Positions 25,185-49,917 of a DNA stretch of 64,000 nt are shown here, piece by piece (the stretch's first letter is position 1; each line of letters begins with the position of its first letter). The position numbers and the translations under genes were made by a program. The notes under the pieces are model-generated. The model did not search any database. It saw only the letters and a list, made by a program, of their open reading frames with translations, and was not told the DNA's origin. Origin of the DNA: Candidatus Staskawiczbacteria bacterium (GTDB lineage Bacteria; Patescibacteriota; Minisyncoccia; Minisyncoccales; Staskawiczbacteraceae). The stretch is taken from NCBI GenBank assembly GCA_903831095.1, contig CAIKWD010000021.1:1518-65517 (forward strand). The letters are read 5' to 3'.

Positions 25185-26578
25185 TGAAACTTCCAAAATA
25201 TTTGTTTTGGTTGGAAACAGTCAAAAAAATTGTCTGGGATCCTTTTTGGTGGGTGATTTTCTTTTTAATTATTTTATGGATTCCATTTTTAAGAGTTTGG
25301 TGGTGGATATTTTTGCCATGGATGTTGCAGGCTCAATTAAAAACAATTTATAAGTGGTATATTAACTGGGATTTTGATTATGCCAAGGGAAAGTGGGTGG
25401 TGCTTGAAATAACTCCTCCACGTGAGCTTTTGGTTCCTATAAAGGCTATGGAAGACGTTTATTCAGTTTTATGGCCAATCATGGATGTGGCTAACTTTAG
25501 GGAACAGTGGTGTGACGGAGAACTAAACAACGGGCCCTATTGGTTTTCCTGGGAAATAGCCAGTATTGAAGGCAAGGTACATTTTTATATAAGATTTATG
25601 CAACAGCACGTGTCCAGCGCTGAAATGGCTCTTTATGCGCATTATCCAGATATTGAAATTAGGGAAGTTACAGATTATGTAAAATTGGTTCCGCAAACTA
25701 TTCCAAATGAAGATTGGGACATGTATGGAGAAGATTGGGATTATTATAATGACGATTGCTTCCCAATCAAAACATATGAGAAATTCTTTGAGCCTCAGGG
25801 AGAAAGAATTTCTGCCGAAGAAAAAAGAATTGACCCAATGATTGGATTGCTTGAAGGTTTGTCAAGACTTGGGCCCGGAGAACATTATTGGGTGCAGTTT
25901 ATTACTGATCCAATAGTGGAGTATGATGAACCAAATGTTTTTAAAGAGGCAAAAAAAGTAATCAATAAAATAGCAGGGCGTGTAGAAAAGAAAGAGCCGA
26001 CATTAATGGAAGATTTAAAAAAAGTGGCCAAAGAGCTTGCCATGGGTCCGGAAAAAGAAGGGTCTGGAGATTCGGCATCATTTTATTGGGAGGAAGACGA
26101 GGAGACGGGTGAGAAACAAATATCACTTACTCCGGGCGAAAGAGAAATTATTACGGAAGTGGAAAATAAAATGAAAAAGCCTTTGTACAGGACTACAATA
26201 AGGGCTGTTTATGTTGCTAAAAGAGATGCATGGAAAGCGCCTCATAGAACTTTGTTCAGGTCTTATACATCGCATTTTATTACTAATAATTTAAATTCTC
26301 TTAATTTTAAGGCTGAGACTAGGCCGAGGATCCACTTTTTTTGGAGAAAGAGAAGAGTATTTTTAAGAGCCAGGAAAATGTTTAGGAATGCTGTTATGCG
26401 TTTTCCTCCTTTGTTTCCAGAAAGAATGGCAGAAGATTTGCAACCAATAATGAGCACAGAAGAATTGGCAACATTGTATCACTTCCCAATAAGGGTTTCT
26501 GGAATGGTATCTCCAACCATGGGAAGCGTGGAATCAAAGAAAGCCGGACCGCCTGCCAATTTGCCGATTGGCGAGTAA
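25181..26578 (+). CDS. Membrane-anchored protein (N-terminal Trp-rich TM pair plus about 380-aa soluble domain), putative partner of the ATPase
   Basis: WWVIFFLIILWIPFLRVWWWIFLPW TM hairpin, then a soluble domain (WFSWEIASIEGKVHFYIRF...). No named family recognised; translationally coupled neighbours. Confidence 0.5.
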   Translation: MMKLPKYLFWLETVKKIVWDPFWWVIFFLIILWIPFLRVWWWIFLPWMLQAQLKTIYKWYINWDFDYAKGKWVVLEITPPRELLVPIKAMEDVYSVLWPIMDVANFREQWCDGELNNGPYWFSWEIASIEGKVHFYIRFMQQHVSSAEMALYAHYPDIEIREVTDYVKLVPQTIPNEDWDMYGEDWDYYNDDCFPIKTYEKFFEPQGERISAEEKRIDPMIGLLEGLSRLGPGEHYWVQFITDPIVEYDEPNVFKEAKKVINKIAGRVEKKEPTLMEDLKKVAKELAMGPEKEGSGDSASFYWEEDEETGEKQISLTPGEREIITEVENKMKKPLYRTTIRAVYVAKRDAWKAPHRTLFRSYTSHFITNNLNSLNFKAETRPRIHFFWRKRRVFLRARKMFRNAVMRFPPLFPERMAEDLQPIMSTEELATLYHFPIRVSGMVSPTMGSVESKKAGPPANLPIGE

Positions 26579-30695: not shown

Positions 30696-30705
30696 ATAAT
30701 AAATT

Positions 30706-32370
30706 ATGAATCAAGAAATAAAAAATTGTCATAACTGTAAGAAAGACTTTACTATAGAGACTGATGACTTTGAATTTTACGAGAAAATGAAAGTTCCAGC
30801 TCCGACTTTTTGTCCAAATTGTAGAATGATTAGAAGAATGGGTTGGCTTGGTTACGGGCAGTATTTGTTTAAGCGCAAATGTGATTTTACCGGAGATAAC
30901 GTTATAACGTGTTACAATTCTGATTCGCCACATAAAATATACAGGCAGGATATATGGTGGTCAGACAAATGGGATCCAAAGAGCTATGGCAAGGATTATG
31001 ATTTTTCAAAGCCATTTTTTGAACAGTGGAAAGAATTATTTGAAGCTGTACCATTGCCGGCTCTCAGCACTGAATATTCAACTATGATTGAAAGCGATTA
31101 TTGCAATGGAGCTAATAACTTAAAAAATTGCTATTTGCTTTTTGGGGCAGGCGAGAATAAGGGTTGTGCATATGGTAGATCGGTAAATTATTGTCAGGAT
31201 TCACTTGACCTTACGCACGTGCATAATTTAGAACTTTGCCATGACACGGTTATGGTTGACCGTGGGTATAAGGTTTTTTCATCAAGATATTGTGAAGATT
31301 GCCATGATGTATGGTTTTCAGAAGATCTTGTTGGGTGTACAGATTGTATTGGTTGTATTAATTTAAGAAACAAACAGTATCATATTTTCAACGAGCCGGT
31401 TACCAAGGAAGAATTTAAAAAATTTATTAACGACCTTGATTTGGGCTCATATCAAAATCGTGTGGCTTTTAAGCAAAAAGCCAAAGAGTTTTTTTTGACT
31501 AAGCCTCATAAAAATTTTCATGAAAGGAAAAATATAAATACATCCGGTGATTATATTTATAATTCAAAGAATGTAAAAAATTCATATTTGGTATTTGGAG
31601 GCGAAAATGTACACTATACTCAAATGGTAGAAACACCTTCCGCAGCGAATGTTTATGATTTTTCCAATTTTGGATATGGTATTGAATTTGTATATGAATC
31701 TGCATGGTGCGGACTTTCAAGCAATAATATAAAATTTTGCTGTTGGAACTATTATGTGCATGATTTGGAGTATTGTTTTGGGTGCCATGGATCTGGAAAT
31801 TTGTTTGGGTGCGTTGGAATTAGAAGTGGGGAATATTGCATTTTAAATAAGCAATATACAAAGGAAGAATATAAAGATATTGTTCCTAAAATTATTGAGC
31901 AAATGAAGTCAACGGGAGAATATGGCGAATTTTTCCCTCCTCAACTTTCGCCTTGGGCATATAACGAAACATTGGGTAACGATTATTTACTGCTCTCAAA
32001 AGAGGCTGTAGAAAATTTTGGATTTAAATATCACGAAGAGCTACGCCAGTATCAGGAGGCTACAATGCCAGTTCCAGACAACATAAAAGACGTTAAAGAC
32101 GACGTGCTTGATGCAATTTTAAAATGTGACTTGTGCGGTAAAAACTATAAAATTATCCGCATGGAATTGGAGTTATACCGCCAGATGAATATACCCATAC
32201 CAAGACAATGTTCATTTTGCAGGTACGACAATCGCATCCGTTCTCTTAATCCTATTGCAATTTATAACCGCAAGTGTGTAAAGTGCGAAAAAGAGATAGA
32301 GACGAGCTATGCCCCAGAGCGCCCAGAAATAATATACTGCGAAAGTTGTTACAATAACGAAGTTGCATAA
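30706..32370 (+). CDS. Cys-rich multi-zinc-ribbon repeat protein, paralog 2
   Basis: CHNCKKDFTIETDDFEFYEKMKVPAPTFCPNCR ... CDLCGKNYKIIRMELELYRQMNIPIPRQCSFCR ... CVKCEKEIETSYAPERPEIIYCESCYNNEVA. Confidence 0.9.
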   Translation: MNQEIKNCHNCKKDFTIETDDFEFYEKMKVPAPTFCPNCRMIRRMGWLGYGQYLFKRKCDFTGDNVITCYNSDSPHKIYRQDIWWSDKWDPKSYGKDYDFSKPFFEQWKELFEAVPLPALSTEYSTMIESDYCNGANNLKNCYLLFGAGENKGCAYGRSVNYCQDSLDLTHVHNLELCHDTVMVDRGYKVFSSRYCEDCHDVWFSEDLVGCTDCIGCINLRNKQYHIFNEPVTKEEFKKFINDLDLGSYQNRVAFKQKAKEFFLTKPHKNFHERKNINTSGDYIYNSKNVKNSYLVFGGENVHYTQMVETPSAANVYDFSNFGYGIEFVYESAWCGLSSNNIKFCCWNYYVHDLEYCFGCHGSGNLFGCVGIRSGEYCILNKQYTKEEYKDIVPKIIEQMKSTGEYGEFFPPQLSPWAYNETLGNDYLLLSKEAVENFGFKYHEELRQYQEATMPVPDNIKDVKDDVLDAILKCDLCGKNYKIIRMELELYRQMNIPIPRQCSFCRYDNRIRSLNPIAIYNRKCVKCEKEIETSYAPERPEIIYCESCYNNEVA

Positions 32371-32389
32371 AAAATATAAAAAATAATTT

Positions 32390-34078
32390 ATGAATCAGGA
32401 AACCAAACAATGTCAGAATTGCAAAAAGGACTTTACTATTGAGTTAGAGGATTTTAATTTCTATGAGAAAATGAAAGTGCCTGCACCAACATTTTGCCCG
32501 GAGTGCAGATTGTTTCGCAGGTTAATTTGGAGAAATGAAAGGATTTTTTTTCGTAGGCCAGAATCATTAACTGGAAAAGAAGTTTTTTCTGGATTTCCGC
32601 CTCAGGCTAAAATAACAGTTTATGATATTGAATATTGGAAGTCTGACGCTTGGGATGCTTTAGATTATGGTAAGGAATATGACTTTTCAAAATCATTTTT
32701 TGAGCAATTTAAAGAATTGATTTATCAAGTACCTTGGCCGTCTCGGGCAATAAGCAACTTGGTAAATTCTGATTACAGTAACCAGGCTGATTATTTAAAA
32801 AATACATATTTGGTACATAATTCCGGTTATGTTGAAAATAGTGCCTATGTTGTTCGCGGTCATAACACCAAGGATAGTTTTGATATTTTAGAAAGCGATG
32901 AAGTTGAGTTGGCATATGATTCTACATTTTTTACCGGTGGATTTAAAATATTCTATTGCTTTGATTGTGTTGATTGCCATGATATTTGGTTGTCAAAAGA
33001 TTTGCATGGTTGTTCTAATTGCGTTGGTTGCGCCGGGTTGCGTGGCAAAAATTACTGTATTTTTAACAAACAATATACAAAAGAAGAATATGCTATTGAA
33101 TTAGAAAAATTAAATTTGAATACTTATTCTGGGTTGGAAACAGCGCGTAAAAAAGCTTATGAGATTTGGCAGAAAACACCTGTAAAATATTACCACGGCA
33201 AGCTGTTGGTTAATTGCGTTGCCGACAACGCCCAAAACAGTAAGAACTGTAAGGAAAGCTGGGGGATAAGAGACAGTCAAGATTCAAAGTTTTGCCAGAA
33301 TGTATATGAATGCACAGATTCCTATGACTACAGCGTTTGGGGAGAGAAAGCTTCTCAAATGTATGAATGTTTGACTTGCGGAAGCCAAGTGGAAAATATG
33401 AAGTTCTGTTTTGATTGCTGGCCTGGAAGCAAAGATTTGGAATATTGCATGGGTTGCAGATCTTCTTCAGACTTGTTTGGATGCGTTGGATTGAAAAGAA
33501 AGCAATATTGTGTTTTTAATAAGCAATATACCAAAGAAGAATATGAAAAATTGGTTGCCCGCATAAAAGATCAAATGATCCAGGTGCCATTTACAGATTC
33601 GCGTGGCAGAGTTTATAAATATGGTGAATTTTTCCCGCAAGAATTTAGTCCTTTTGCATACAACGAAAGCCATTTACAAGACTTGTTTCCCAAGACCAAA
33701 GAGCAGGCAGAAGAATTAGGATTCTTCTTGAGAGAACAACCAGTAAAGGAATTTAAAATTACTTTGCAGTCTTCAGAATTGCCAGATTCTATTGATGAAG
33801 TGCAAGATGACATTTTAAATCAGGTTGTTTCCTGTGGCAATTGCGGGAAGGCTTATAAAATTATTGCTACGGAACTGCAATTTCTAAGGCAAATGAAGTT
33901 GCCCCTTCCAAGGCTTTGTGTAGAGTGCCGTTTTCAAGCGCGCAACAAGTTTATTAATTCTCCATTTTTTTACAACCGAAATTGTGCCAAATGCCAAACT
34001 GCCATTCGTACAACATATGCTCCAGACAGAAAAGAGATAGTTTATTGCGAAAGCTGTTACAATAGCGAAGTGTCATAA
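32390..34078 (+). CDS. Cys-rich multi-zinc-ribbon repeat protein, paralog 3
   Basis: CQNCKKDFTIELEDFNFYEKMKVPAPTFCPECR ... CGNCGKAYKIIATELQFLRQMKLPLPRLCVECR ... CAKCQTAIRTTYAPDRKEIVYCESCYNSEVS. Confidence 0.9.
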   Translation: MNQETKQCQNCKKDFTIELEDFNFYEKMKVPAPTFCPECRLFRRLIWRNERIFFRRPESLTGKEVFSGFPPQAKITVYDIEYWKSDAWDALDYGKEYDFSKSFFEQFKELIYQVPWPSRAISNLVNSDYSNQADYLKNTYLVHNSGYVENSAYVVRGHNTKDSFDILESDEVELAYDSTFFTGGFKIFYCFDCVDCHDIWLSKDLHGCSNCVGCAGLRGKNYCIFNKQYTKEEYAIELEKLNLNTYSGLETARKKAYEIWQKTPVKYYHGKLLVNCVADNAQNSKNCKESWGIRDSQDSKFCQNVYECTDSYDYSVWGEKASQMYECLTCGSQVENMKFCFDCWPGSKDLEYCMGCRSSSDLFGCVGLKRKQYCVFNKQYTKEEYEKLVARIKDQMIQVPFTDSRGRVYKYGEFFPQEFSPFAYNESHLQDLFPKTKEQAEELGFFLREQPVKEFKITLQSSELPDSIDEVQDDILNQVVSCGNCGKAYKIIATELQFLRQMKLPLPRLCVECRFQARNKFINSPFFYNRNCAKCQTAIRTTYAPDRKEIVYCESCYNSEVS

Positions 34079-34082
34079 AAAA

Positions 34083-35780
34083 ATGGAAAGCCAAACTAAA
34101 ATTTGTCAGAGTTGTAAGAAAGACTTTACTATAGAGCCTGATGATTTTGATTTTTATAAAAAGATGAAAGTTCCGCCTCCGACATGGTGTCCGGAATGCC
34201 GAATGATCAGGCGCATGCTGTGGCGTAACGAGCGCAAATTGTTTAGAAGAAAAGATGCTCGTACCGGGAAGGATTTGTTGGCCTTATATCCTGAAGAATC
34301 TGGGTGGCCGGTTTATCATGAAAGCGATTGGTGGAATTTGGATTTGTGGGATCCGCTTTCATACGGGCAGGATTTTAATCCTCAAAAATCTTTTTTGGTG
34401 CAGTTTTTTGAATTGTGCAAAAAGGTGCCCAAACCTCATTCAGATGCAGTTAACATGGTAAACAGCGAATACTCCGCAAATGCTGCTGATATGAAAAACT
34501 GCTATCTTGTTTTCAACTCTGCTTATGACGAAGATTGCGGATATGGCAATGGGTTTACTTCTAGCAGAAATTGTTATGATGGCTCGTATGTTAACAAGTC
34601 GGAAAGATGCTATGGATCTTTTTGGGTAGACAATTGTTACGAAACGCACTTTTCCTCGCATTGTGATAATTGCGTTTCTGTATGGTTTTCCAGAGATTGT
34701 CGGGGATGTTCTTATTGTGTTGGCTGTGCCAATTTACGGAACAAAAAATACTGCATTTTTAATGAGCAATTTACCAAAGAGGAATATGATGTTCGTATTG
34801 CCCAAATGAAGCTTGATACATGGACTGGCATTGTTTCTGTTGGAAATCAATCAAAAAGTTTTTGGCTTTTATATCCGTACAAATATATTCAAGGAGTGCA
34901 AAATACCAATGTATCCGGAGCATATATCTCCAATTCTAAGAATACAAAAAAAAGCTACTTGATACGAGGCGCAGAAGACATTGCTTATGTGCAATATGGC
35001 CAATATCCACCTTTGAGAGACGCAATGGATGTGACCGTAACCGGCGAAACAGAGCTTGTATATGAAAGTTTAACTTCTGGGTGGTCTGGCTCAAATATAA
35101 AATTTTGCGTTGAATCATGGAATGGCGGTCATGACTTGGAATACTGCTTGTTTTGCTCCAGCAATGGAGCTAATTTATTTGGATGCGTTGGAGTAGGCAA
35201 GTACCAATATTGTATTTTGAACAAACAATATACCAAAGAAGAATATTTTGCCTTGCGGGAAAAAATCATTCAGCAAATGAATGATATGCCATATGTAGAC
35301 AAACAAGGCAGGGTTTACAAATATGGAGAATTTTTTCCACCGGAATTTTCTCCTCTTGCATATCAGCAGACAATTCTGCCCGAACACTTCAATATGACTC
35401 AACAGGAGGTGGAAGCATTTGGCGCTCGTTGGCAGGAGTCTAATTCTACTGAATATCAAACTACAAAAGACGCCAAAAATCTGTCAGATTCCATTGAAAA
35501 TGTTGATTTAGAAGTGTTAAAAGAGGTTATAAAATGCGAAAAGTGCGGGAAGGCTTATAGGATTATTCAACCGGAATTGCAATTTTTAAAACAAGTCAAA
35601 ATTCCCTTGCCACACACATGCGTTGATTGCAGACACTTTGATAGAATAAGTCAAAGGAATCCTGCTATATTTTATAATAGAAAATGCGCTAAATGTGGCA
35701 TAGATATAGAAACAAGTTATGCTCCGGACAGGAAAGAGATAGTTTACTGCGAAAAGTGTTACAATGAAGAAGTAGTGTAA
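34083..35780 (+). CDS. Cys-rich multi-zinc-ribbon repeat protein, paralog 4
   Basis: CQSCKKDFTIEPDDFDFYKKMKVPPPTWCPECR ... CEKCGKAYRIIQPELQFLKQVKIPLPHTCVDCR ... CAKCGIDIETSYAPDRKEIVYCEKCYNEEVV. Confidence 0.9.
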   Translation: MESQTKICQSCKKDFTIEPDDFDFYKKMKVPPPTWCPECRMIRRMLWRNERKLFRRKDARTGKDLLALYPEESGWPVYHESDWWNLDLWDPLSYGQDFNPQKSFLVQFFELCKKVPKPHSDAVNMVNSEYSANAADMKNCYLVFNSAYDEDCGYGNGFTSSRNCYDGSYVNKSERCYGSFWVDNCYETHFSSHCDNCVSVWFSRDCRGCSYCVGCANLRNKKYCIFNEQFTKEEYDVRIAQMKLDTWTGIVSVGNQSKSFWLLYPYKYIQGVQNTNVSGAYISNSKNTKKSYLIRGAEDIAYVQYGQYPPLRDAMDVTVTGETELVYESLTSGWSGSNIKFCVESWNGGHDLEYCLFCSSNGANLFGCVGVGKYQYCILNKQYTKEEYFALREKIIQQMNDMPYVDKQGRVYKYGEFFPPEFSPLAYQQTILPEHFNMTQQEVEAFGARWQESNSTEYQTTKDAKNLSDSIENVDLEVLKEVIKCEKCGKAYRIIQPELQFLKQVKIPLPHTCVDCRHFDRISQRNPAIFYNRKCAKCGIDIETSYAPDRKEIVYCEKCYNEEVV

Positions 35781-35894: not shown

Positions 35895-36206
35895 ATGATA
35901 TTTATTTATGTGCCGTGTCAAAATCTTGAAACGGCCAAAACTATCGCTAAAATTTTGGTCGAAGGAAAAAAAGCAGGCAAGGTAGACATTTTGCCTACCA
36001 ATTCAGTTTCTCGCGAAGCCGGTGGAATAGTTGAAACTGTGGGGGCAACTATGATTATTATGACCATAGACAAACATGTCCAAGACATAGAGGACATTGT
36101 TAGAGAACATTACCATGATGGCGTGCCTTGTATGGCAACTATTTCACTATATCGACTAAATCGCGACTTTAAAGATTGGCTTATTGCCTCTACAGATTTA
36201 ATTTAG
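35895..36206 (+). CDS. CutA-like (divalent-cation-tolerance family) small protein
   Basis: 103 aa. IFIYVPCQNLETAKTIAKILVEGKKAGKVDILP ... MIIMT ... DFKDWL follows the CutA1 pattern (recollection); no SD. Confidence 0.45.
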   Translation: MIFIYVPCQNLETAKTIAKILVEGKKAGKVDILPTNSVSREAGGIVETVGATMIIMTIDKHVQDIEDIVREHYHDGVPCMATISLYRLNRDFKDWLIASTDLI

Positions 36207-36231: not shown

Positions 36232-36298
36232 TTGAAGAAAGTGCATAAAAAAGCTATTATTAAAAAAAAGATAGTTAAAATTTAATTTAGTAACGTTT

Positions 36299-37759
36299 AT
36301 GGCAGAGAATAATAGAATACGAAGATTTAAATTGGCGCCTCCGCCTCCAGAGCTGCCTATTTACGGTACAGTTGATCCTGAAGAATGCTCATTTATTGGT
36401 AAAACCAACTATGAAGCGGCTTTACAAGAACAGAAGTTTATTTTTGGAATTAAAAGGGTAGACAGACGCAGGCACTTGTATATTGTAGGAAAATCCGGAG
36501 TTGGAAAGTCAAAACTTCTAGAACTTTTTGTGCGCCAAGACATTGGATATGGCCACGGGCTTTGTTTTATAGATCCGCACGGAGACGTTATAGATGCAAT
36601 TTTGGATTTTATTCCTGAAGACCGCATAGATGACGTTGTTCTTATTGACCCTTCAGATGCCAAGTTCCCAATATCTTTCAACCCTTTAGCCAATATTGAT
36701 CCGGCTTTCAAACATCAATTGACTCAGGGTTTAATTGAGGTGCTAGAGAGGCAGTTTGGCGCTAACTGGACACCAAGGCTTGAGCACGTTTTCCGTTTTA
36801 CCTGTTTGGCTCTTTTGGATTATCCTCATGGCACAATGCGCGGAATGATTTCCATGCTGACTGATCGCAATTACCGCCAGCTGGTGGTTGAGTATATTGA
36901 AGACGACATGGTAAAGCGCTTCTGGGCCATTGAGTTTGCCGATTGGTCTGAAAAATACGACACCGAAGCTATTATCCCTTTGGTTAACAAACTTGCACAG
37001 TTTTTGTCTGACCCGGCCTTGCGTGGAATTTTTGGACAAGAGGAAAACAAAGTTGATTTGGAAAAGCTGATGAACGAAGGCAAGATTATTTTGATTAACT
37101 TGTCTAAGGGAAAATTGGGAGAGGAAAACGCCAGCTTTTTTGGCTCAATGTTTATTACAAAAATAAAACAGGCTGGTATGGCGCGCGCTTCGCTTCCTGA
37201 ATCAGAGAGGAATGATTTTTATTTGTATGTTGACGAGTTCCACAACTTAATGACCGAGACCTTTGAAAACATATTGTCTGAAGCCCGCAAATACGGCATT
37301 TGTCTTACAGTTGCTCACCAGTACATGGGCCAGCTTCTGCCAAAAGTTCAGCAAGCTGTTTTGGGAAACACGGGAACCATTATTGTATTTAGAGTTGGTG
37401 GAGAAGATGCAGTTAAACTTGAGCCGGAAATGGCGCCAATATTTGGAGTCAAAGACATGGTAAACTTGGGAGTGCAGAATTTTTACATCAAGGAAACAAT
37501 TGATGGAGAAGCTTATGACCCTTTTTCTGCTGAAACTCTCAAAGTTATGCCGCCAACTCACAAGTCTTTCAAAAAGGAAATTATTGAGGCTTCACGCTCA
37601 AAATATACTATTTCAGCTGAGGCCGCAAAAGAGCTTATGCAGTCTGAAGAATCTAAAATTATGAGAAGCTCGCACGAGAAATCCATAATTCAAGGCAAGG
37701 GAAAAGGCCCCGAAGAATCTAAAAAAGCAGAAGACAAACCCGAAGAGCCATTAATCTAA
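36299..37759 (+). CDS. FtsK/HerA/VirD4-superfamily P-loop ATPase, second paralog (no ribbon tail)
   Basis: FGIKRVDRRRHLYIVGKSGVGKS, FIDPHGD, FYLYVDEFHNL, LTVAHQY. Colinear with 26605-28908 over about 430 aa, roughly half identical by eye. Confidence 0.7.
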   Translation: MAENNRIRRFKLAPPPPELPIYGTVDPEECSFIGKTNYEAALQEQKFIFGIKRVDRRRHLYIVGKSGVGKSKLLELFVRQDIGYGHGLCFIDPHGDVIDAILDFIPEDRIDDVVLIDPSDAKFPISFNPLANIDPAFKHQLTQGLIEVLERQFGANWTPRLEHVFRFTCLALLDYPHGTMRGMISMLTDRNYRQLVVEYIEDDMVKRFWAIEFADWSEKYDTEAIIPLVNKLAQFLSDPALRGIFGQEENKVDLEKLMNEGKIILINLSKGKLGEENASFFGSMFITKIKQAGMARASLPESERNDFYLYVDEFHNLMTETFENILSEARKYGICLTVAHQYMGQLLPKVQQAVLGNTGTIIVFRVGGEDAVKLEPEMAPIFGVKDMVNLGVQNFYIKETIDGEAYDPFSAETLKVMPPTHKSFKKEIIEASRSKYTISAEAAKELMQSEESKIMRSSHEKSIIQGKGKGPEESKKAEDKPEEPLI

Positions 37760-37822
37760 TAATTGTAAAGTTTAGTGATAAAAAAGGTGCGAAAGCATCT
37801 TTTTTGTTTGCTTATAAAAACA

Positions 37823-39561: not shown

Positions 39562-41223
39562 ATGGATCAAAAAACATGCAAGTGTCAAAGTTGCAAGCAA
39601 AATTTTACTATTGAGCCTGATGATTTTGAGTTTTACCAAAAAATAGATTTGCCTTCGCCAACAATGTGTCCTGTCTGCCGTTTCAAGTACCTTCTGGCTT
39701 TCTGGGTTTTTGGAAGGTTTAGAATTACCAAGTCTGCCTTGAGTGGGAAAACAATTATCACAGTTATCCCTGAGTCAGCTCCTTTTCCTATTTATGAAAG
39801 AAGCGAATTTGTATCTGATGCCTGGGACCCGCTGACATATGGCAGAGACTATGATTCGACACGTTCATTTATAGAACAGCTGGTTGAGCTTCAGTCTGTT
39901 GTGCCTCATCCTCATCAGTGTGGAATTAAAAATACCAATTCAGAATGGGCTGATGATGTTTGGGAGTCTAAAGATGCATATTTAACGCGTTCGGCCTTGT
40001 ATCTTGATTCTGTTAGCTATGGATATAGAGTAATAAATTGCAAAAACTGCATTGATATAACTTATTCCTTTGATTTGGAGCGTTCATATGACTGCTTGTT
40101 TTGTTTTAAAAGCTATAACTTAAATTATTCTTTCAATTGCCGAGACTGCATGGATAGTTATTTCTTGTATGACTGCAGAAACTGCCAGAATTGCTTTATG
40201 TCCTGGAATTTGCGAAATCAAAAATACTGTATTTTAAATCAGCAGTATTCCAAAGAAGATTATTTTGAAAAAATTAAAGAATACAATCTTGATTCACGTT
40301 CTTCAATTGAAGCTTTGAAAAAAGAAATGTGGCAGCATATTCAAAAGGATGCTGTAAATAGACAAGACTACAATCTTCAGGCAGTACAATCTACCGGAAA
40401 CTTCCTGACAAACGACAAAAATTGCCATGTTTGTTATTTTACCGAAGAGTCAGAAAATTGCCGTTATATTTTTAGGGGTTTTAAAAGTAAAGAAACTATT
40501 GATTCAGTGGGAGCTCTTGAGTGTGAAAAAAGCGCGCTAGGAATACAAGATCAAGTTTCATATAATAACTTGTGCAATCTTTATACTACTAATTGCAGAT
40601 ACAGCGCTTACTTGGATAATTGTGAAGAAACAGAATATTGTTTTGGATGTGTAGGATTACGAAAACAGAAATACTGTATTTTGAATAAACAATACTCTAA
40701 AGAAGAATATGAAGGTTTGGTTGAGAAAATTAAAAAAGATATGAAAGAAAGAGGTGAGTGGGGAAAGCTTTTACCACTTTCAGCTGCATATTGCGGATAC
40801 AATCTTTCTTTAGCCCAGATGATGTATCCAATGACAAAAGATGAAGTCGTTGAGTTTGGTGCTAAATGGGAAGAAACTGTTGAACCAAAATACGAAAATA
40901 TTATCAATGGAGATGATCTGCCGGACACTATTGGAAAAGTCAGTGATGACATTACCAAACAGCGTATTCTTTGCCCTGAGACAAAACTCAGCTATAACAT
41001 AACAAAAGAAGAACTGGCATTTTATCGCGAGCACAATATTCCACTTCCAAGAAGGCATTTTGACTGGAGAACCTTGGACCGTTTTAAGCCATTTAGTTTG
41101 ATGATAACGCCCCAGAAAGGAACATGTTATTACTGTAAAAAAGAGATTGAACATTATTACAGCCCTGAGCTTGGATTTCAGAAAATAGCTTGTTTGGAAT
41201 GTTATCAGCGAGAGGTTGCTTAA
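39562..41223 (+). CDS. Cys-rich multi-zinc-ribbon repeat protein, paralog 5 (most divergent)
   Basis: CQSCKQNFTIEPDDFEFYQKIDLPSPTMCPVCR ... degenerate C-terminal ribbon (CPETKLSYNITKEELAFYREHNIPLPRRHFDWR) ... CYYCKKEIEHYYSPELGFQKIACLECYQREVA. Confidence 0.9.
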   Translation: MDQKTCKCQSCKQNFTIEPDDFEFYQKIDLPSPTMCPVCRFKYLLAFWVFGRFRITKSALSGKTIITVIPESAPFPIYERSEFVSDAWDPLTYGRDYDSTRSFIEQLVELQSVVPHPHQCGIKNTNSEWADDVWESKDAYLTRSALYLDSVSYGYRVINCKNCIDITYSFDLERSYDCLFCFKSYNLNYSFNCRDCMDSYFLYDCRNCQNCFMSWNLRNQKYCILNQQYSKEDYFEKIKEYNLDSRSSIEALKKEMWQHIQKDAVNRQDYNLQAVQSTGNFLTNDKNCHVCYFTEESENCRYIFRGFKSKETIDSVGALECEKSALGIQDQVSYNNLCNLYTTNCRYSAYLDNCEETEYCFGCVGLRKQKYCILNKQYSKEEYEGLVEKIKKDMKERGEWGKLLPLSAAYCGYNLSLAQMMYPMTKDEVVEFGAKWEETVEPKYENIINGDDLPDTIGKVSDDITKQRILCPETKLSYNITKEELAFYREHNIPLPRRHFDWRTLDRFKPFSLMITPQKGTCYYCKKEIEHYYSPELGFQKIACLECYQREVA

Positions 41224-41226
41224 ATT

Positions 41227-42978
41227 ATGAATAAAGAAACAAAACAATGTCAGAGTTGTAAGAAGGACTTTACTATAGAGTCTGATGATTTTGAGTTTTA
41301 TGAGAAGATGAAAGTACCGGCGCCGACATTTTGCCCGGAATGCAGAATGCAGAGGCGATTAATATGGCGAAACGAACGGACTTTGTATAAAAGAAAATGT
41401 GATGCGCCTGGCCATACTGAAGATCTTATCTCAATGTATGCACCTGAGCATACTTTTCCAGTATATGATCATGAATTTTGGTACAGCGACAAATGGGATG
41501 CTTTGGATTATGGAAAAGATTTCGATTTTACTAAACCATTTTTTAAACAATTTGAGGAACTTTTTCTTACTGTACCACATGTCGCACTTTTTGACAGTAA
41601 GTCGGTTAATTCCAGTTATTGCAATATTGTTGTAGAACATAAGAATTGCTATCTTGTCAGTGCTGGATGGGGAAATGAGGATTCTATGTACAGTAATAGG
41701 ATTGCTAATTGTAAAAATACTTTTGATTCCTATGTTTGTCATAGGACTGAGTTTGGTTATGAAAACGTTTATTGTCGGGAATCAAATTTGCTGAGATTCA
41801 GTCTTAGAAGCGAGGGTTGTGTTGATTCATATTTTCTTTATGATTGCAGAAATTGTTCTAATTGCATTTGTTGTTCAAACTTAAGGAATAAAAGCTACTG
41901 CATTTTCAACGAGCAATACACCAAAGAAGAATATGCAAAAAAATTGGCAGATTTAAATCTTGGAAGTTATAAGTCTTTTCAAGCGCTGGCAGAAAAATTT
42001 GAGGAGATGAAATTAAAAGCTATTAATAAATTTGCTTATCTCTTAAATACCCAGAATGTTATTGGGGACAATGTTTATAATTCCCGAAATTGCTATTATT
42101 GTTTTGATTTGGAAGGAGATGCTGAAAATGTTAAATATTCCAATTGGGGCACTTTGTCTCTTCGTGATTCCCATGATACTGGTCCTGGCACCAGCGGCAA
42201 TTCTGAATTGATTTATGAAGGCATAAGTATTGGAGTTAAGAACGCACGTTGTAAGTTTGGGGTGATTGTTTGGTATTCTCATGATATGCAATATTGCTAT
42301 AATTGCCAGGATTCTCATGATCTTTTTGGATGCGTTGGCCTGCGAAAAAAACAATACTGCATTTTAGATAAACAGTATACAAAAGAAGAATATGAGGCTC
42401 TTGTGCCAAAGATCGTTTCGCATATGAATGAGATGCCATATGTAGATAAAAAGGATAGAGTTTATAAATATGGAGAATTTTTTCCAGCAGAATTATCTCC
42501 ATTTGCCTATAACGAGACAGTAGTCCAGGATTATATGCCCCTTACTGAAAAAGATGCTTTGGACAAAGGTTTTGAGTGGAGGCCAATTGATAATAGAAAT
42601 TACAAAACAACTATTTCCTGGCAAAATTTGCCTGACACAATTAAAGAAACTCCTGATTCTATTATTGACGAAGTTATTAGCTGTGCCCATGAAGGCAAAT
42701 GCAATGAACAATGTACAGGCGCTTTTAAAATTGTGAAAGAAGAACTTAATTTTTATAAGAGGATGAATTTACCTATTCCAAGGCTTTGTCATAATTGCAG
42801 ACATTATGGGCGAGTAAAGCAGAGAAACCCAATGAAATTATGGCATCGCCAGTGCATGTGCGATAAATTAGGTCATGATCATACTGACAGGTGTACAAAC
42901 GAATTTGAAACCAGTTATGCGCCGGATAGGCCGGAGACAGTTTATTGCGAACAGTGCTATAATAGTGAAATTGCTTAA
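41227..42978 (+). CDS. Cys-rich multi-zinc-ribbon repeat protein, paralog 6
   Basis: CQSCKKDFTIESDDFEFYEKMKVPAPTFCPECR ... CAHEGKCNEQC ... LPIPRLCHNCR ... ETSYAPDRPETVYCEQCYNSEIA. 34 Cys in 583 aa (hand count). Confidence 0.9.
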   Translation: MNKETKQCQSCKKDFTIESDDFEFYEKMKVPAPTFCPECRMQRRLIWRNERTLYKRKCDAPGHTEDLISMYAPEHTFPVYDHEFWYSDKWDALDYGKDFDFTKPFFKQFEELFLTVPHVALFDSKSVNSSYCNIVVEHKNCYLVSAGWGNEDSMYSNRIANCKNTFDSYVCHRTEFGYENVYCRESNLLRFSLRSEGCVDSYFLYDCRNCSNCICCSNLRNKSYCIFNEQYTKEEYAKKLADLNLGSYKSFQALAEKFEEMKLKAINKFAYLLNTQNVIGDNVYNSRNCYYCFDLEGDAENVKYSNWGTLSLRDSHDTGPGTSGNSELIYEGISIGVKNARCKFGVIVWYSHDMQYCYNCQDSHDLFGCVGLRKKQYCILDKQYTKEEYEALVPKIVSHMNEMPYVDKKDRVYKYGEFFPAELSPFAYNETVVQDYMPLTEKDALDKGFEWRPIDNRNYKTTISWQNLPDTIKETPDSIIDEVISCAHEGKCNEQCTGAFKIVKEELNFYKRMNLPIPRLCHNCRHYGRVKQRNPMKLWHRQCMCDKLGHDHTDRCTNEFETSYAPDRPETVYCEQCYNSEIA

Positions 42979-42981
42979 ATT

Positions 42982-44700
42982 ATGAATCAAGAAATAAAAG
43001 TTTGTCAGAATTGCAAAAAGGACTTTACTATAGAGCCTGATGATTTTGATTTCTACAAGAAAATAAATGTACCAGCTCCAACTTTTTGTCCGGACTGCAG
43101 AATGCAACGCAGGTTTTCCTGGCGAAATGAGTGGAGATTGTTTAGAAAAAAAGATGTCCATGGAAAGGAAATTTTTTCCATGGTAAGTGAATCTTCTCCG
43201 GTAAAAATAATGGAAATGGCAGAATGGTATTCTGATTCATGGGACCCAATGGATTATGGACAGGACTATGACTTTTCACAGCCATTTTTTAAACAGTTTG
43301 GTAAATTAATGAGCCAGGTTCCTCTTATGTCTAGGAATCTTATCAGAGCTGTAAACAGCGACTACTGTTCTAATGCCACCCAACCTAAAGATTGTTACTT
43401 AACATTTAGTTTGTCTTACGTGGAAAATTCAGCATATTCAATTTGGGGCGGAAAATCAAAGGATATTTTTGACTGTTATATGTATAACGAGTCCGAGCTT
43501 TGTTATGACTGCGTGAATATGAGTAAATGTTATAATGCCTCTTATTCTATAGATTGTGACAATTGCAATGACATCATGTTTTGCAAAAGCTGTGTTGGGT
43601 GCAACAACTGTTTTGGAAGCGCTAATTTAAAAAACAAAGCATATTACATTTTTAACGAACAATACACCAAGGAAGAATACGCAAAGAAATTGGAGGAGTT
43701 TAAGACAAATTTTAGGTCAAATGTTGAAGCTATCAGGGAAAAAAGTATAAAGCATTGGCAAAATTTTCCCAATAAGTTCATCCATGGACGACACAACACC
43801 AATGTTTCGGGAGATTATATATTGGAATCTAAGGATGCTAAAAATTGTTGGAGAATAATTGGAGGAGAAAATTTGAAATACTGCCAAAATTTTACTTTGG
43901 GTCCGGTAAAAGATTCTTACGACCAAAGCAATTTTGGAGACAATTCAGAATTGGTTTATGATTCTTTGGTAGTTGGGAACGGAGCCTATAATGTAAAATT
44001 TTCATGTCAAAGCTATCCTTCAATAACTGACCTACACTATTGTTTTCAGTGCCAAAATTCGTCACATTTATTTGGGTGTATCAGCTTGAGAAACAAGCAA
44101 TATTGTATTTTAAACAAACAATATACAAAAGAAGAATATGAAGAATTAGTGCCCAAAATTATTGCGCACATGAATGAAATGCCTTATGTAGACCAAAAGG
44201 GAATAATTTATAGGTATGGAGAATTCTTTCCAGCGGATATGAGTCCTATGGCTTATAACGAATCGCTTGCTAATGATTTTTTTCCAATGACCAAAAAAGA
44301 GGCAGAAGAACAAGGACTTGCTTGGCGTGAGCAAAGTAAAAGAGAATACAATGCCACAAAGTCTGCGCTTGAGCTTCCAGACAATATTGAAGATGTAGAT
44401 GACAGCATTTTAAAGGAGGTTATAAGTTGTCCACATGAGGGCAAATGCAGTCATGACTGTGTTGGAGTATTCAAAATTACTAATCAGGAATTACAATTTT
44501 ATAGAAAACTTGGCATACCCTTGCCACGGATTTGCCAAAACTGCAGGCATTATGCGAGGTTTGCCTGGAGAAATCCGCCAAAGCTTTACCACAGGAGCTG
44601 CATGAAGCCTGGATGTAAAAATGAGTTTGAGACAAGTTATGCTCCAGACAGGCCTGAAATTGTTTACTGCGAGCAATGTTATAACGAGGAAGTGGCATAA
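42982..44700 (+). CDS. Cys-rich multi-zinc-ribbon repeat protein, paralog 7
   Basis: CQNCKKDFTIEPDDFDFYKKINVPAPTFCPDCR ... CPHEGKCSHDC ... IPLPRICQNCR ... ETSYAPDRPEIVYCEQCYNEEVA. Confidence 0.9.
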   Translation: MNQEIKVCQNCKKDFTIEPDDFDFYKKINVPAPTFCPDCRMQRRFSWRNEWRLFRKKDVHGKEIFSMVSESSPVKIMEMAEWYSDSWDPMDYGQDYDFSQPFFKQFGKLMSQVPLMSRNLIRAVNSDYCSNATQPKDCYLTFSLSYVENSAYSIWGGKSKDIFDCYMYNESELCYDCVNMSKCYNASYSIDCDNCNDIMFCKSCVGCNNCFGSANLKNKAYYIFNEQYTKEEYAKKLEEFKTNFRSNVEAIREKSIKHWQNFPNKFIHGRHNTNVSGDYILESKDAKNCWRIIGGENLKYCQNFTLGPVKDSYDQSNFGDNSELVYDSLVVGNGAYNVKFSCQSYPSITDLHYCFQCQNSSHLFGCISLRNKQYCILNKQYTKEEYEELVPKIIAHMNEMPYVDQKGIIYRYGEFFPADMSPMAYNESLANDFFPMTKKEAEEQGLAWREQSKREYNATKSALELPDNIEDVDDSILKEVISCPHEGKCSHDCVGVFKITNQELQFYRKLGIPLPRICQNCRHYARFAWRNPPKLYHRSCMKPGCKNEFETSYAPDRPEIVYCEQCYNEEVA

Positions 44701-44709
44701 AAATAACAT

Positions 44710-44734
44710 ATAACCGATTAAATTGGTCGGTTAT
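44710..44734 (+). repeat. Intercistronic palindromic hairpin, copy 1
   Basis: ATAACCGATTAAaTTGGTCGGTTAT, 12-bp stem with two G-U pairs possible only in plus-strand RNA. Lies 10 nt after the paralog 7 stop. Confidence 0.6.
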
Positions 44735-44750
44735 GCGGTTAAAATAAAAT

Positions 44751-46412: not shown

Positions 46413-46422
46413 TTATAAAAAT

Positions 46423-48087: not shown

Positions 48088-48099
48088 TAAACAAAAAAT

Positions 48100-49908: not shown

Positions 49909-49917
49909 AAATAATAT

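What the first reader, a model, noticed from the sequence alone, without database searches (positions are those of the whole stretch)
36299..37759. A second, tail-less copy of the ATPase sits inside the array
Seen: the 486-aa protein is colinear with residues ~1-430 of ATPase 1. Compare FGIKRVDRRRHLYIVGKSGVGKS / FIDPHGD / FYLYVDEFHNL / VAHQY with FGIKRVDRRQHMYVIGKTGVGKT / IIDPHGE / FYMYVDEFQNF / IAHQY. It has no adjacent membrane-partner genes and no zinc ribbon. It is preceded by a CutA-like gene and followed by a terminator-like hairpin and T-run (~37786-37806). Inference: either the ATPase duplicated together with the array, or the two form a hetero-oligomeric motor. Related ATPases work as hexamers, and some secretion ATPases have several non-identical ATPase domains. 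One ATPase per paralog block (4 genes, 7 genes) is also a possible organisation.
Basis: partly seen in the sequence, partly recalled or inferred. Interest (0 to 1): 0.55.

Follow-up and report, generated by a model that had tools for sequence, protein, structure and literature searches.

The report
Conserved second coupling-protein-like ATPase
The gene is an intact and unusually well-conserved second motor ATPase that has been kept next to its sister ATPase and a membrane protein in many ultra-small (CPR) bacteria, so the two look like parts of one uncharacterised transport machine, not a leftover duplicate.

Summary
Window 36299-37759 (+) encodes a 486-aa P-loop ATPase that is 46% identical to residues 1-430 of ATPase 1 (E 3e-135). 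CutA lies upstream and a strong hairpin plus T-run lies downstream.

The reading "tail-less copy that duplicated with the array" does not hold:
- **Ancient split.** ATPase 2 (type A) and ATPase 1 (type B) are separate lineages. A orthologues are 74-96% identical and B orthologues 68-92% across many Paceibacteria groups. A versus B is only 34-49%, even within one locus.
- **Kept together.** Both are kept with the DUF8128 membrane protein in shuffled orders, sometimes as tight DUF8128-small protein-A-B operons with no array.
- **B is a split half.** B groups with single-chain DUF8128::ATPase fusions (bootstrap 100/100). DUF8128 ends in a PPxxLP linker that B lacks.
- **A stands alone.** A has its own PPxxLP linker and a short flexible tail ending in a conserved EPLI.
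- **Fold.** The model resembles the conjugative coupling protein TrwB, including its all-alpha domain. A has no membrane segment, and no T4SS or relaxase genes were found nearby.

My inference is that A is the free second motor of a DUF8128-anchored translocase derived from a Gram-positive-type coupling protein. The substrate is unknown.

The parts
36299..37759 (+). ATPase 2, the type-A paralogue: a soluble ATPase with the TrwB/VirD4 fold, 486 aa
   Evidence: Pfam hits pass their thresholds: TrwB_AAD_bind 40.8 bits (cut-off 20.5), TraG-D_C 29.3 (22) and DUF87 26.7 (23.2). The AF2 model has pLDDT 82 and pTM 0.80. Its best PDB matches are TrwB-deltaN70 chains at E 1e-11 to 1e-9, TM 0.49-0.66. 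Orthologues in many Paceibacteria are 74-96% identical. No hydrophobic, TM-like stretch.
36335..36358 (+). N-terminal linker motif APPPPELP (aa 13-20)
   Evidence: Present in 35 of 37 type-A proteins and in 0 of 81 type-B proteins. The same motif ends 41 of 48 DUF8128 proteins and lies at the junction of the fused DUF8128::ATPase proteins. Modelled with pLDDT 85-89.
36488..36511 (+). Walker A motif GKSGVGKS (aa 64-71)
   Evidence: G64, K65, G67, G69 and K70 are invariant in the 71-sequence A+B alignment. The motif is present in 120 of 120 A hits and 120 of 120 B hits.
36701..37078 (+). Predicted all-alpha domain inserted in the nucleotide-binding domain (about aa 135-260)
   Evidence: A run of 8 helices lies between strands E113-116 and E263-267 in the model, as in the TrwB all-alpha domain. 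38 of 126 residues are invariant between A and B, against 76 of 265 in the rest of the core.
37217..37240 (+). Walker B motif FYLYVDEF (aa 307-314)
   Evidence: D312 and E313 are invariant. VDEF is present in 118 of 120 A hits. The motif aligns to TrwB LFIDEL. Q341 (in AHQY) and R365 (in FRVG) are also invariant.
37745..37756 (+). Conserved C-terminal tetrapeptide EPLI at the end of a disordered tail
   Evidence: 103 of 120 type-A homologues end in [E/P/G]-P-[L/I/F]-[I/V/L/A], and the commonest endings are EEPLI and PEPLI. About 30 of the 37 locus-derived A proteins end in this motif or a close variant. The last ~20 residues of the tail have pLDDT < 50.
37774..37812 (+). Terminator-like hairpin: A-tract, stem, GAAA loop, stem, T-tract
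   Evidence: Fold energy -15.9 kcal/mol, z -4.9, and 0 of 200 shuffles fold as well. Sequence read directly.
36232..36260 (+). Weak promoter-like site between CutA and ATPase 2 (TTGAAG-17-TATTAT)
   Evidence: A 9/12 consensus match only. The number of such sites in the region is not above the shuffled expectation.
35895..36206 (+). CutA-like gene, a recurrent member of the cluster
   Evidence: Pfam CutA1 2.6e-12. It precedes A in 8 loci, follows A in 3, and also lies inside arrays in other lineages.
26605..28908 (+). ATPase 1, the type-B paralogue: the same core plus a CxxC-x17-CxxC finger (aa 466-499) and a long low-complexity tail
   Evidence: Orthologues are 68-92% identical. 69 of 81 carry the finger and 0 of 81 carry PPxxLP. 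B nests among the DUF8128-fused forms.
25181..26578 (+). DUF8128-like membrane protein. It ends in ...SKKAGPPANLPIGE, and with B it makes a split version of the fused protein.
   Evidence: One strongly hydrophobic N-terminal stretch. Homologues carry the precomputed label PF26449. Natural DUF8128::ATPase fusions exist. Junction alignment.
24960..25184 (+). 74-aa membrane protein upstream of DUF8128
   Evidence: Conserved at 43-73% identity in Staskawiczbacteria loci. Hydrophobic over most of its length.
28986..35780 (+). Array block 1: four paralogues (554-569 aa) of a Cys-rich treble-clef zinc-finger protein
39562..51657 (+). Array block 2: seven paralogues. The first (39562-41223) is the conserved, most divergent type that follows A in related genomes.
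   Evidence: Array-type genes also directly precede a fused DUF8128::ATPase gene in a distant lineage.

Best explanation
**What it is (shown).** ATPase 2 is an intact gene under strong purifying selection. It is the type-A member of an ancient pair of paralogous P-loop ATPases with the fold of type IV coupling proteins (TrwB/VirD4, FtsK-HerA superfamily).
- **Type A.** About 440-500 aa, soluble, with no zinc finger. It carries its own N-terminal K-x-A-PPPP-x-LP linker and a flexible tail that ends in EPLI.
- **Type B (ATPase 1).** It starts just after that linker position and usually carries a CxxC-x17-CxxC finger and a long tail.
- **The membrane partner.** DUF8128 ends in the PPxxLP linker. 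DUF8128 plus B is therefore a split form of the single-chain DUF8128::ATPase proteins. A similar single-chain layout occurs in a coupling-protein-position gene of a Bacillus conjugative plasmid.
- **The cluster.** DUF8128, a small membrane protein, A and B are kept together on the chromosome across Paceibacteria and deeper CPR relatives. A variable number of treble-clef zinc-finger genes and CutA often lie among them.

**How it most likely works (inferred).**
- B is tethered to the membrane through the DUF8128 C-terminal linker and forms the membrane-proximal ring translocase.
- A does not need that tether. It forms the second, free ATPase of the same machine, either as its own ring docking through the EPLI tail or mixed into the ring.
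- The all-alpha domain is as conserved between A and B as the catalytic core, so both probably handle the same class of substrate.
- The machine is a chromosomal derivative of a monoderm conjugative coupling protein. The substrate is unknown. The adjacent zinc-finger proteins, or DNA, are the candidates.
For: **Identity and fold**
- Pfam TrwB_AAD_bind, TraG-D_C and DUF87 all score above their thresholds.
- The AF2 model has pLDDT 82. TrwB chains are the best PDB matches (E 1e-11 to 1e-9, TM 0.49-0.66), followed by HerA and Cag-beta.
- Walker A, Walker B, Q341 and R365 are invariant in both lineages.

**Conservation**
- A is 74-96% identical and B 68-92% identical across Staskawicz-, Jorgensen-, Lipton-, Wolfe-, Sung- and Brennerbacteria and others.
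- In the same loci SecD and SecF are only about 41-54% identical.

**Ancient split**
- A-A and B-B median identity is 0.73. A-B is 0.34-0.49, and 0.39-0.48 within one locus.
- B is monophyletic in 100/100 bootstraps, and so is the split {B + tailed + fused} versus {A + short}.

**Linkage**
- Gene maps of about 170 loci show A, B, DUF8128 and the array together in shuffled orders.
- Minimal operons DUF8128-small protein-A-B have A-B gaps of 13-66 bp.
- A-like genes only 43-45% identical to ATPase 2 still lie in DUF8128-B-A or DUF8128-small protein-A-B operons with 4-16 bp gaps.

**Split and complementation rule**
- PPxxLP is present in 41/48 DUF8128 C-termini, 35/37 A N-termini and 0/81 B.
- Natural fusions exist.

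**Conjugative ancestry**
- The 833-aa DUF87 protein of plasmid pBM69 is 27% identical over 92% of A. It lies beside genes annotated as a replication-relaxation family protein, conjugal transfer proteins and a large ATP-binding protein.
- Its N-terminal part aligns to the window DUF8128-like protein (E 2e-7).

**Literature**
- PMC12102498 reports 5,713 VirD4-type homologues in 2,918 Patescibacteria genomes. Only 148 lie near virB4, and the authors raise exaptation.
Against: - Nothing here shows physical contact between A, B and DUF8128. Co-folding was not possible with these tools.
- In 4 of 25 long B-anchored loci, B stands alone with no A or array within 10 kb.
- One lineage with a fused ATPase has array genes but no A within reach. 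A is therefore not needed everywhere, or it can be encoded elsewhere.
- Whole-genome co-occurrence could not be counted.
- In the window A has its own promoter-like site and its own terminator-like hairpin, which allows separate regulation.
- Both paralogues keep full catalytic sites, so there is no alpha/beta-type division of labour that would point to a mixed ring.
- The trees are neighbour-joining trees on 407 columns, not maximum likelihood.
Confidence: 0.6

Rival explanations
1. A and B alternate in one mixed hexameric ring (A3B3) on DUF8128.
For: - The two genes have been linked for a long time, sometimes only 13-66 bp apart.
- About 29-30% of core positions are invariant between A and B, including the candidate trans-acting R365.
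- Both are far more conserved than their neighbours.
Against: - Both keep complete catalytic sites.
- A has its own linker, while B takes its linker from DUF8128, which suggests different attachment.
- Fused single-ATPase lineages exist, so a homomeric ring is sufficient elsewhere.
- No interface test was possible.
Confidence: 0.2
2. A works independently of B, and the linkage is only inherited gene order. For example, A could be the coupling protein for the chromosomal virB4-type T4SS encoded elsewhere, or a soluble DNA translocase or helicase.
For: - Gene order in these small genomes is generally conserved: the SecD-SecF-sigma-like genes also travel with the cluster.
- A has its own terminator and promoter-like site here.
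- B is sometimes alone.
- The literature notes coupling-protein homologues far from virB4.
Against: - The order within the cluster is repeatedly shuffled, yet A, B and DUF8128 stay together.
- Deep relatives keep them as tight operons even where the array and the SecDF context are gone.
Confidence: 0.17
3. ATPase 2 is a recent, truncated and decaying duplicate of ATPase 1.
For: Only the impression from this single window: a shorter protein with no finger, sitting inside the array.
Against: - 46% identity to ATPase 1, against 74-96% to orthologues in other lineages.
- Catalytic motifs are intact in 118-120 of 120 homologues.
- It has its own conserved N- and C-terminal motifs.
- It forms a separate clade with 100/100 support.
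Confidence: 0.01
4. It is the coupling protein of an integrated conjugative or mobile element.
For: - The T4CP fold and Pfam families.
- Distant homologues on plasmids.
Against: - No relaxase, VirB4, integrase or transposase appears in the Pfam-annotated neighbourhoods.
- The same chromosomal position, between SecDF and PGK, is kept in many genomes.
- Base composition is uniform across the window.
- The best plasmid hit is only 38% identical.
Confidence: 0.02

Closest known systems
TrwB (plasmid R388) and the VirD4/TraD/TraG type IV coupling proteins
   Same: - A RecA-like nucleotide-binding domain with an inserted all-alpha domain.
- Walker A, Walker B and the conserved Gln.
- Best structural match in the PDB, and Pfam TrwB_AAD_bind and TraG-D_C score above threshold.
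- A ring-shaped hexamer is therefore expected.
   Different: - About 15% identity.
- No N-terminal transmembrane domain.
- No T4SS or relaxase genes nearby.
- A chromosomal gene conserved like a core gene.
- It comes as a fixed pair of paralogues.
- The curated NCBIfam coupling-protein models score far below their cut-offs.
Single-chain DUF8128-like::ATPase proteins, including the 833-aa DUF87 protein of Bacillus methanolicus plasmid pBM69
   Same: - The same ATPase family: 27% identity over 92% of ATPase 2.
- The pBM69 N-terminal part aligns to the window DUF8128-like protein (E 2e-7).
- The CPR fusions show the junction order ELATLYHFP ... PPxxLP ... TNFR ... GIKRxDRRRH.
   Different: - One polypeptide instead of DUF8128 plus B plus a free A.
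- The plasmid protein sits beside genes annotated as a replication-relaxation family protein, conjugal transfer proteins and a large ATP-binding protein. The CPR cluster has none of these.
Orphan VirD4-type homologues of Patescibacteria (Microb Genom 2025, PMC12102498)
   Same: This gene is almost certainly one of them. The paper counts about two per genome (5,713 in 2,918 genomes). Nearly all lie away from virB4, and the authors suggest exaptation.
   Different: - I found no mention in that paper of two lineages, the DUF8128 partner, the split/linker rule or the zinc-finger array.
- The full-text library holds no paper with the term DUF8128.
Machines that use two or more paralogous FtsK/HerA-type ATPases (VirB4 with VirD4 in T4SS; the stacked ATPase domains of EssC in type VII secretion)
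   Same: This is a comparison of how it may work, from general knowledge: paralogous ring ATPases act in series on one membrane channel.
   Different: No sequence-level membership. Here the two ATPases are much closer to each other (46%) than VirB4 is to VirD4, and the membrane partner is DUF8128.
HerA DNA translocase/helicase
   Same: Second-best structural match (4d2i and others). Pfam DUF87, the HerA central domain, scores above threshold.
   Different: - Lower TM-score (0.38-0.48).
- No NurA or defence partner nearby.
- PADLOC HerA hits are weak, E 7.5e-6 or worse.

Membership tests
Type IV coupling protein (VirD4/TrwB/TraD/TraG) | P-loop nucleotide-binding domain of the TrwB type, with Walker A and B | tested here: met
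   Pfam TrwB_AAD_bind 40.8 bits (cut-off 20.5) and TraG-D_C 29.3 (22). GKSGVGKS and VDEF are invariant. TrwB is the only PDB sequence match with E below 0.1 (E 1e-3).
Type IV coupling protein (VirD4/TrwB/TraD/TraG) | All-alpha domain inserted in the nucleotide-binding domain | tested here: met
   The predicted model has an eight-helix insertion at about aa 135-260. Overall best fold match is TrwB-deltaN70. This rests on a predicted structure, not a solved one.
Type IV coupling protein (VirD4/TrwB/TraD/TraG) | N-terminal transmembrane anchor in the same polypeptide | tested here: not met
   No hydrophobic stretch reaches the TM threshold: the highest 19-residue Kyte-Doolittle mean is 1.06. The model has no membrane helix. 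Only the sister ATPase has a plausible anchor, supplied in trans by DUF8128.
Type IV coupling protein (VirD4/TrwB/TraD/TraG) | Encoded with a T4SS (VirB4 and others) and/or a relaxase | tested here: not met
   None appears in the window ORFs that were scanned. None appears in the Pfam-annotated tables of L001-L009 and L172-L176.
Type IV coupling protein (VirD4/TrwB/TraD/TraG) | Passes the curated NCBIfam models for TraD or VirD4-like proteins | tested here: not met
   SXT_TraD 49.3 bits against a cut-off of 366, conju_CD1115 45.7 against 250, and conj_TOL_TraD 37 against 647.
DUF8128-linked coupling-protein-like ATPases of CPR bacteria (uncharacterised; defined here) | Encoded in one cluster with a DUF8128 membrane protein and a second paralogous ATPase | tested here: met
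   Window: DUF8128-like 25181-26578, B 26605-28908, A 36299-37759. The same trio is found in many loci.
DUF8128-linked coupling-protein-like ATPases, type-A (short soluble) lineage | Own N-terminal PPxxLP linker, no zinc finger, and groups with the short forms rather than with B or the fused forms | tested here: met
   APPPPELP at aa 13-20. 35/37 A carry the motif against 0/81 B, and 0/37 A carry the finger. The split has 100/100 bootstrap support.
FtsK/SpoIIIE DNA translocases | Pfam FtsK_SpoIIIE motor domain, multi-pass N-terminal membrane domain and a gamma (KOPS-binding) domain | tested here: not met
   No FtsK_SpoIIIE hit at E <= 0.01. No membrane segment. The C-terminus is a disordered tail.
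HerA helicase/translocase systems (HerA-NurA and HerA-based defence systems) | HerA-type ATPase together with NurA or a defence effector partner | tested here: not met
   The DUF87 domain hit is above threshold and HerA is a structural match. There is no partner gene nearby, and PADLOC HerA hits are weak.
MADS defence system (mad8) | mad8-like ATPase together with the other mad genes | tested here: not met
   The mad8 hit scores 3e-13 and matches model positions 24-254 of 314. None of the 7 other cluster proteins tested matched a mad model.

The most novel reading that the evidence does not exclude
DUF8128, B and A together form a previously undescribed two-motor translocase that is fixed on the chromosome. 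It would derive from a Gram-positive-type conjugative coupling protein. It would be core to Paceibacteria and related CPR bacteria and dedicated to the adjacent, expanding family of treble-clef zinc-finger proteins, either exporting them (for example towards the host cell) or loading them onto a nucleic-acid cargo. That would make it a new CPR-specific transport system.
Probability: 0.25. Interest if true: 0.8.

Novelty: new variant of a known kind. Interest (0 to 1): 0.55.

Why it matters
CPR/Patescibacteria are a large share of bacterial diversity. They live with tiny genomes, and most are thought to depend on host cells.

A recent survey found about two VirD4-like genes per genome that are not linked to the secretion system and have no known role (PMC12102498). 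This analysis resolves those orphans, at least in Paceibacteria, into three linked parts:
- a membrane-linked ATPase that is one half of a split protein;
- a free-standing ATPase;
- the DUF8128 membrane protein.

The two ATPases are more conserved than SecD and SecF in the same loci. That argues for an important cellular role, not a remnant of a mobile element.

The results also give concrete, testable predictions:
- the DUF8128 C-terminal PPxxLP tail binds B;
- the EPLI end of A is a docking peptide;
- the shared all-alpha domain binds a common substrate.

Finally, they point to the neighbouring zinc-finger protein family as candidate cargo or partners. That family takes up about 19 kb of this window.

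Tried and rejected
- **Recent duplicate or pseudogene.** Rejected on identity, motif conservation and phylogeny.
- **Duplication together with the array, or one ATPase per block.** Rejected. Block 1 and block 2 paralogues intermix in the tree. The number of array genes between A and B ranges from 0 to more than 5.
- **Defence system.** PADLOC gave only a weak mad8 hit and weak HerA hits, with no partner genes.
- **Mobile element.** Plasmid and phage tblastn found only distant relatives, at most 38% identical. The best hit is an isolated gene next to transposases on a Sulfitobacter plasmid.
- **Simple terminator scan.** It missed the hairpin after the gene. Direct folding confirmed the hairpin.
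- **Local Pfam scan of the window DUF8128-like protein.** No hit even at E <= 5. The DUF8128 label comes from precomputed annotations of homologues. The local Pfam copy may lack PF26449.
- **Names for distant representatives.** The cluster look-up returned no organism names.
- **Proteins with two ATPase stretches (P0267, P0275, P0354).** I looked at them as possible A-B fusions. They are only 34-37% identical to ATPase 2, look like a different multi-P-loop architecture, and were not pursued.
- **Fold of the array protein.** The AF2 model (pLDDT 77, pTM 0.76) has no PDB match below E 2, so it gave no functional lead.
- **Literature.** Searches for DUF8128, for CPR with DUF87, and for CxxC-x17-CxxC found no description of this cluster.
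- **Not attempted.** Mirror-tree or co-evolution tests, because shared phylogeny would confound them.
Full report
**1. The observation**

Window 36299-37759 (+) is a clean ORF of 486 codons. BLASTP against ATPase 1 (26605-28908, 767 aa) gives 46% identity over 416 columns with E 3e-135.

- **Upstream gene.** It is a CutA1 family member (Pfam 2.6e-12).
- **Downstream hairpin.** Positions 37774-37812 fold with -15.9 kcal/mol, z = -4.9, followed by a T-run. The simple terminator scan missed it.
- **Next gene.** A promoter-like TTGACA-17-TAGAGT lies at 37823-37851.
- **Protein features.** ATPase 2 has 4 cysteines, no CxxC pair and no hydrophobic, TM-like stretch.

The protein is not strictly tail-less. 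It has a disordered K/E-rich tail of about 50-60 residues (the last ~20 have pLDDT < 50). The tail ends in EPLI, which is conserved in 103 of 120 homologues.

**2. The organism and the wider window**

The window has low G+C (about 30-40%) and a single dominant coding strand. It carries housekeeping genes: SecA, DinB, SecD/SecF, PGK, asparagine synthase and glycosyltransferases.

The closest homologues of the ATPases and of the DUF8128-like protein come from Candidatus Staskawiczbacteria and other Parcubacteria/Paceibacteria. The exact protein is found on metagenome contigs with the same gene order. No VirB4, relaxase, integrase or transposase was found in the ORFs I scanned.

**3. What kind of protein it is**

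- **Pfam.** TrwB_AAD_bind, TraG-D_C and DUF87 all score above their gathering thresholds.
- **NCBIfam.** The curated coupling-protein models match only weakly, far below their cut-offs.
- **PDB by sequence.** The only match with E below 0.1 is TrwB (E 1e-3).
- **Predicted structure.** An AlphaFold2 model built on 71 sequences has pLDDT 82.3 and pTM 0.80. It shows a RecA-like core with an eight-helix insertion at about residues 135-260.
- **PDB by fold.** Foldseek puts TrwB-deltaN70 first (E 1e-11 to 1e-9, TM 0.49-0.66), then HerA and Cag-beta/VirD4.
- **Catalytic residues.** Walker A (GKSGVGKS), Walker B (VDEF), Q341 and R365 are invariant across both paralogue families.

So it has the fold and catalytic equipment of a type IV coupling protein. 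It lacks that family's membrane anchor and genetic context.

**4. It is not a recent or truncated copy**

- **A-type conservation.** Homologues of ATPase 2 are about 485 aa long and 74-96% identical across Staskawicz-, Jorgensen-, Lipton-, Wolfe-, Nealson- and Brennerbacteria and others.
- **B-type conservation.** Homologues of ATPase 1 are 68-92% identical across a similar range, and most carry the CxxC-x17-CxxC finger.
- **Identity on 407 aligned columns.** A-A and B-B median identity is 0.73. A-B identity is 0.34-0.49, and for A and B from the same locus it is 0.39-0.48.
- **Comparison with neighbours.** In the same loci SecD and SecF are only about 41-54% identical. Both ATPases therefore evolve more slowly than these Sec components.
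- **Trees (neighbour-joining, 100 bootstraps).** B is monophyletic (100). B plus tailed forms plus all fused forms separate from A plus short forms (100).

The duplication therefore predates the radiation of these lineages, and there is no sign of gene conversion.

**5. The genomic pattern**

I mapped genes in about 170 related loci.

- **Staskawiczbacteria layout** (the window, L008, L011, L013 and others): SecD-SecF-sigma-like - 74-aa membrane protein - DUF8128 - B - array(n) - CutA - A - array(m) - PGK.
- **Other Paceibacteria layouts:**
  - SecDF-sigma-like - DUF8128 - ~172-aa membrane protein - A - array(n) - (CutA) - B;
  - B - DUF8128 - small protein - A (L121, L170);
  - DUF8128 - small protein - A - B with no array and A-B gaps of 13-66 bp.
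- **B-anchored genome loci.** 34 of 80 hold A. Of the 25 with at least 9 kb on both sides, 12 hold A. In 9 more there are array genes but no A within reach, and in several of these the array runs to the locus edge. In 4, B stands alone.
- **A-anchored metagenome loci.** Of the 13 with long flanks, 11 hold DUF8128, 11 hold array genes and 5 hold B.
- **Distant short forms.** Two forms only 43-45% identical to ATPase 2 lie in DUF8128-B-A (L174) and sigma-like-DUF8128-176 aa-A-B (L175/L176) operons with 4-16 bp gaps and no array.

The conserved core is therefore DUF8128 plus a small membrane protein plus A plus B. The array and CutA are frequent but variable additions.

**6. The split/complementation rule**

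The wider family is very large: 5,711 clusters at 50% identity score E <= 1e-30. Many members are single polypeptides with a DUF8128-like N-terminal part followed by the ATPase.

At the junction the fused proteins read ...ELAT[LI][YF]H[FL]P ... S[RK]K[AG]xPPxxLP ... [ST]xF[GA]xTNFR ... GIKRxDRRRH. In the split systems:
- DUF8128 ends with the PPxxLP element (41 of 48).
- B begins just after it (0 of 81 carry it).
- A carries its own copy, K-L-A-PPPP-E-LP at residues 11-20 (35 of 37).

This holds whichever ATPase gene happens to follow DUF8128, and it holds in the deep relatives L174 and L175.

Together with the phylogeny, this shows that DUF8128 plus B is a split form of the fused protein and that A is a free-standing paralogue. 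I infer that the DUF8128 tail binds B in trans, at the place where A's own segment packs against its domain. That segment is modelled at pLDDT 85-89.

**7. Link to conjugation**

tblastn against plasmids finds only distant relatives, all below 60% identity and at most 38% for the best.

One is informative. On Bacillus methanolicus pBM69, an 833-aa DUF87 protein is 27% identical over 92% of ATPase 2. It lies beside genes annotated as a replication-relaxation family protein, conjugal transfer proteins and a large ATP-binding protein. Its N-terminal part aligns to the window DUF8128-like protein (E 2e-7).

This suggests that the fused architecture is that of a monoderm conjugative coupling protein.

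The result fits the report that Patescibacteria carry about two VirD4-type homologues per genome. Nearly all lie away from virB4, and the authors raise possible exaptation (PMC12102498). I found no paper that describes DUF8128 or this cluster.

**8. The array**

- **The proteins.** The 11 paralogues are 32-51% identical to one another. They have conserved N- and C-terminal treble-clef zinc fingers and an internally duplicated Cys-rich centre.
- **Shared finger.** Their C-terminal finger belongs to the same Pfam family (zf_Tbcl_2) as the finger in B's tail.
- **No block-wise duplication.** Block 1 and block 2 paralogues intermix in the tree. Several have 70-80% orthologues in other genomes, so the blocks did not arise with the ATPase duplication.
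- **Link to the ATPase family.** Two array-type genes (36% identity, E 1e-104) directly precede a fused DUF8128::ATPase gene, and the second overlaps it by 4 bp, in a distant lineage. The link between this protein family and the ATPase family is therefore old.
- **No fold match.** The AF2 model (pLDDT 77) has no PDB match.

**9. Mechanism: shown and inferred**

Shown:
- the identity and fold class of ATPase 2;
- intact catalytic motifs;
- the ancient A/B split;
- persistent linkage with DUF8128;
- the split relationship between DUF8128 and B;
- A's own terminal motifs;
- an all-alpha domain as conserved between A and B as the catalytic core (38/126 against 76/265 invariant positions).

Inferred:
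- B is tethered to the membrane by DUF8128 and forms the membrane-proximal ring.
- A is the second, free ATPase of the same apparatus.
- The EPLI end of A is a docking peptide.
- Both ATPases recognise the same class of substrate.
- The substrate may be the zinc-finger proteins or DNA.

A literal A3B3 ring is possible but untested. I give it about 0.2.

**10. Verdict**

The finding is real. The short ATPase belongs to a separate, old lineage of free-standing soluble ATPases. The long ATPase is one half of a split protein.

This is a new variant of a known kind: a coupling-protein-like ATPase in a two-paralogue, DUF8128-linked chromosomal module.

Noticed in passing
window 28986-35780 and 39562-51657 (+): Eleven paralogues (about 553-602 aa, 32-51% identical to one another) of a Cys-rich protein take up about 19 kb. 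Each has an N-terminal treble-clef finger (weak zf_Tbcl matches), a C-terminal finger (zf_Tbcl_2 matches below threshold, in 3 of the 5 scanned) and an internally duplicated centre (...C.GLR.K.YCI.N.QYTKEEY twice). The AF2 model (pLDDT 77, pTM 0.76) has no PDB fold match, and no Pfam family covers the centre.
   Followed up: partly
window 39562-41223 (+): This array gene, the first array gene after ATPase 2 (two lineage-specific genes lie between them), is the most divergent paralogue: 32-36% identical to the others, with several zinc-ligand cysteines lost. Its 72-78% orthologues are the next recognised cluster gene after the A-type ATPase in other Staskawiczbacteria loci (L008, L011, L022, L023, L029).
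   Followed up: partly
window 46285-48087 (+): The mechanical ORF start at 46285 overlaps the previous gene by 128 nt. The conserved N-terminus (MQIETKQCQSCKKDF) shows that the real start is the ATG at 46423.
   Followed up: yes
window 28000-28102 (aa 466-499 of ATPase 1) compared with the C-termini of the array genes: The CxxC-x17-CxxC finger in the tail of ATPase 1 belongs to the same Pfam/TIGR family (zf_Tbcl_2, TIGR04272) as the C-terminal finger of the array proteins. This hints at a shared ligand or a mutual interaction.
   Followed up: partly
L003 9481-9999, L004 9463-9999, L175 9464-9994; window 24960-25184: In most other lineages a ~170-180-aa protein lies between DUF8128 and the A-type ATPase. 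It has an N-terminal membrane segment and a soluble domain with a conserved R-N-x-L-x-H (R-x4-H, HEPN-like) motif. The Pfam matches are weak: HEPN_Swt1 0.008 and Hypoth_Ymh 0.02. The window instead has a 74-aa, mostly hydrophobic membrane protein upstream of DUF8128.
   Followed up: partly
window 37893-38708 and 38811-39470 (+): Two lineage-specific genes are inserted between ATPase 2 and the array. One is a 271-aa protein with a partial receiver domain below threshold (25.6 bits against 30.2). The other is a 219-aa membrane protein with six hydrophobic stretches and a weak DUF6962 match. Beyond the near-identical contig L001, only L029 has a homologue of the membrane protein.
   Followed up: partly
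window 56241-57860 (-): A single 539-aa ORF fuses a complete LexA-like repressor (LexA_DNA_bind 1.5e-15 and Peptidase_S24 6.8e-28) to a C-5 cytosine DNA methyltransferase (1.9e-91). The adjacent 279-aa gene (55398-56237) has no Pfam hit and could be the cognate nuclease.
   Followed up: no
window 22656-23684 (+) and its orthologues in most related loci: A 342-aa protein that combines Sigma70 region 4 with a HARE-HTH domain lies directly upstream of the DUF8128/ATPase cluster in nearly all lineages, including next to a fused DUF8128::ATPase gene in L173.
   Followed up: no
type-B proteins in L007-L050 and P0121-P0240: Many B-type ATPases end their long low-complexity tail with a conserved KPGE[TA][VI]K[FL] C-terminus (43 of 120 homologues; the window protein ends KPGETVKF). 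This parallels the EPLI end of type A.
   Followed up: partly
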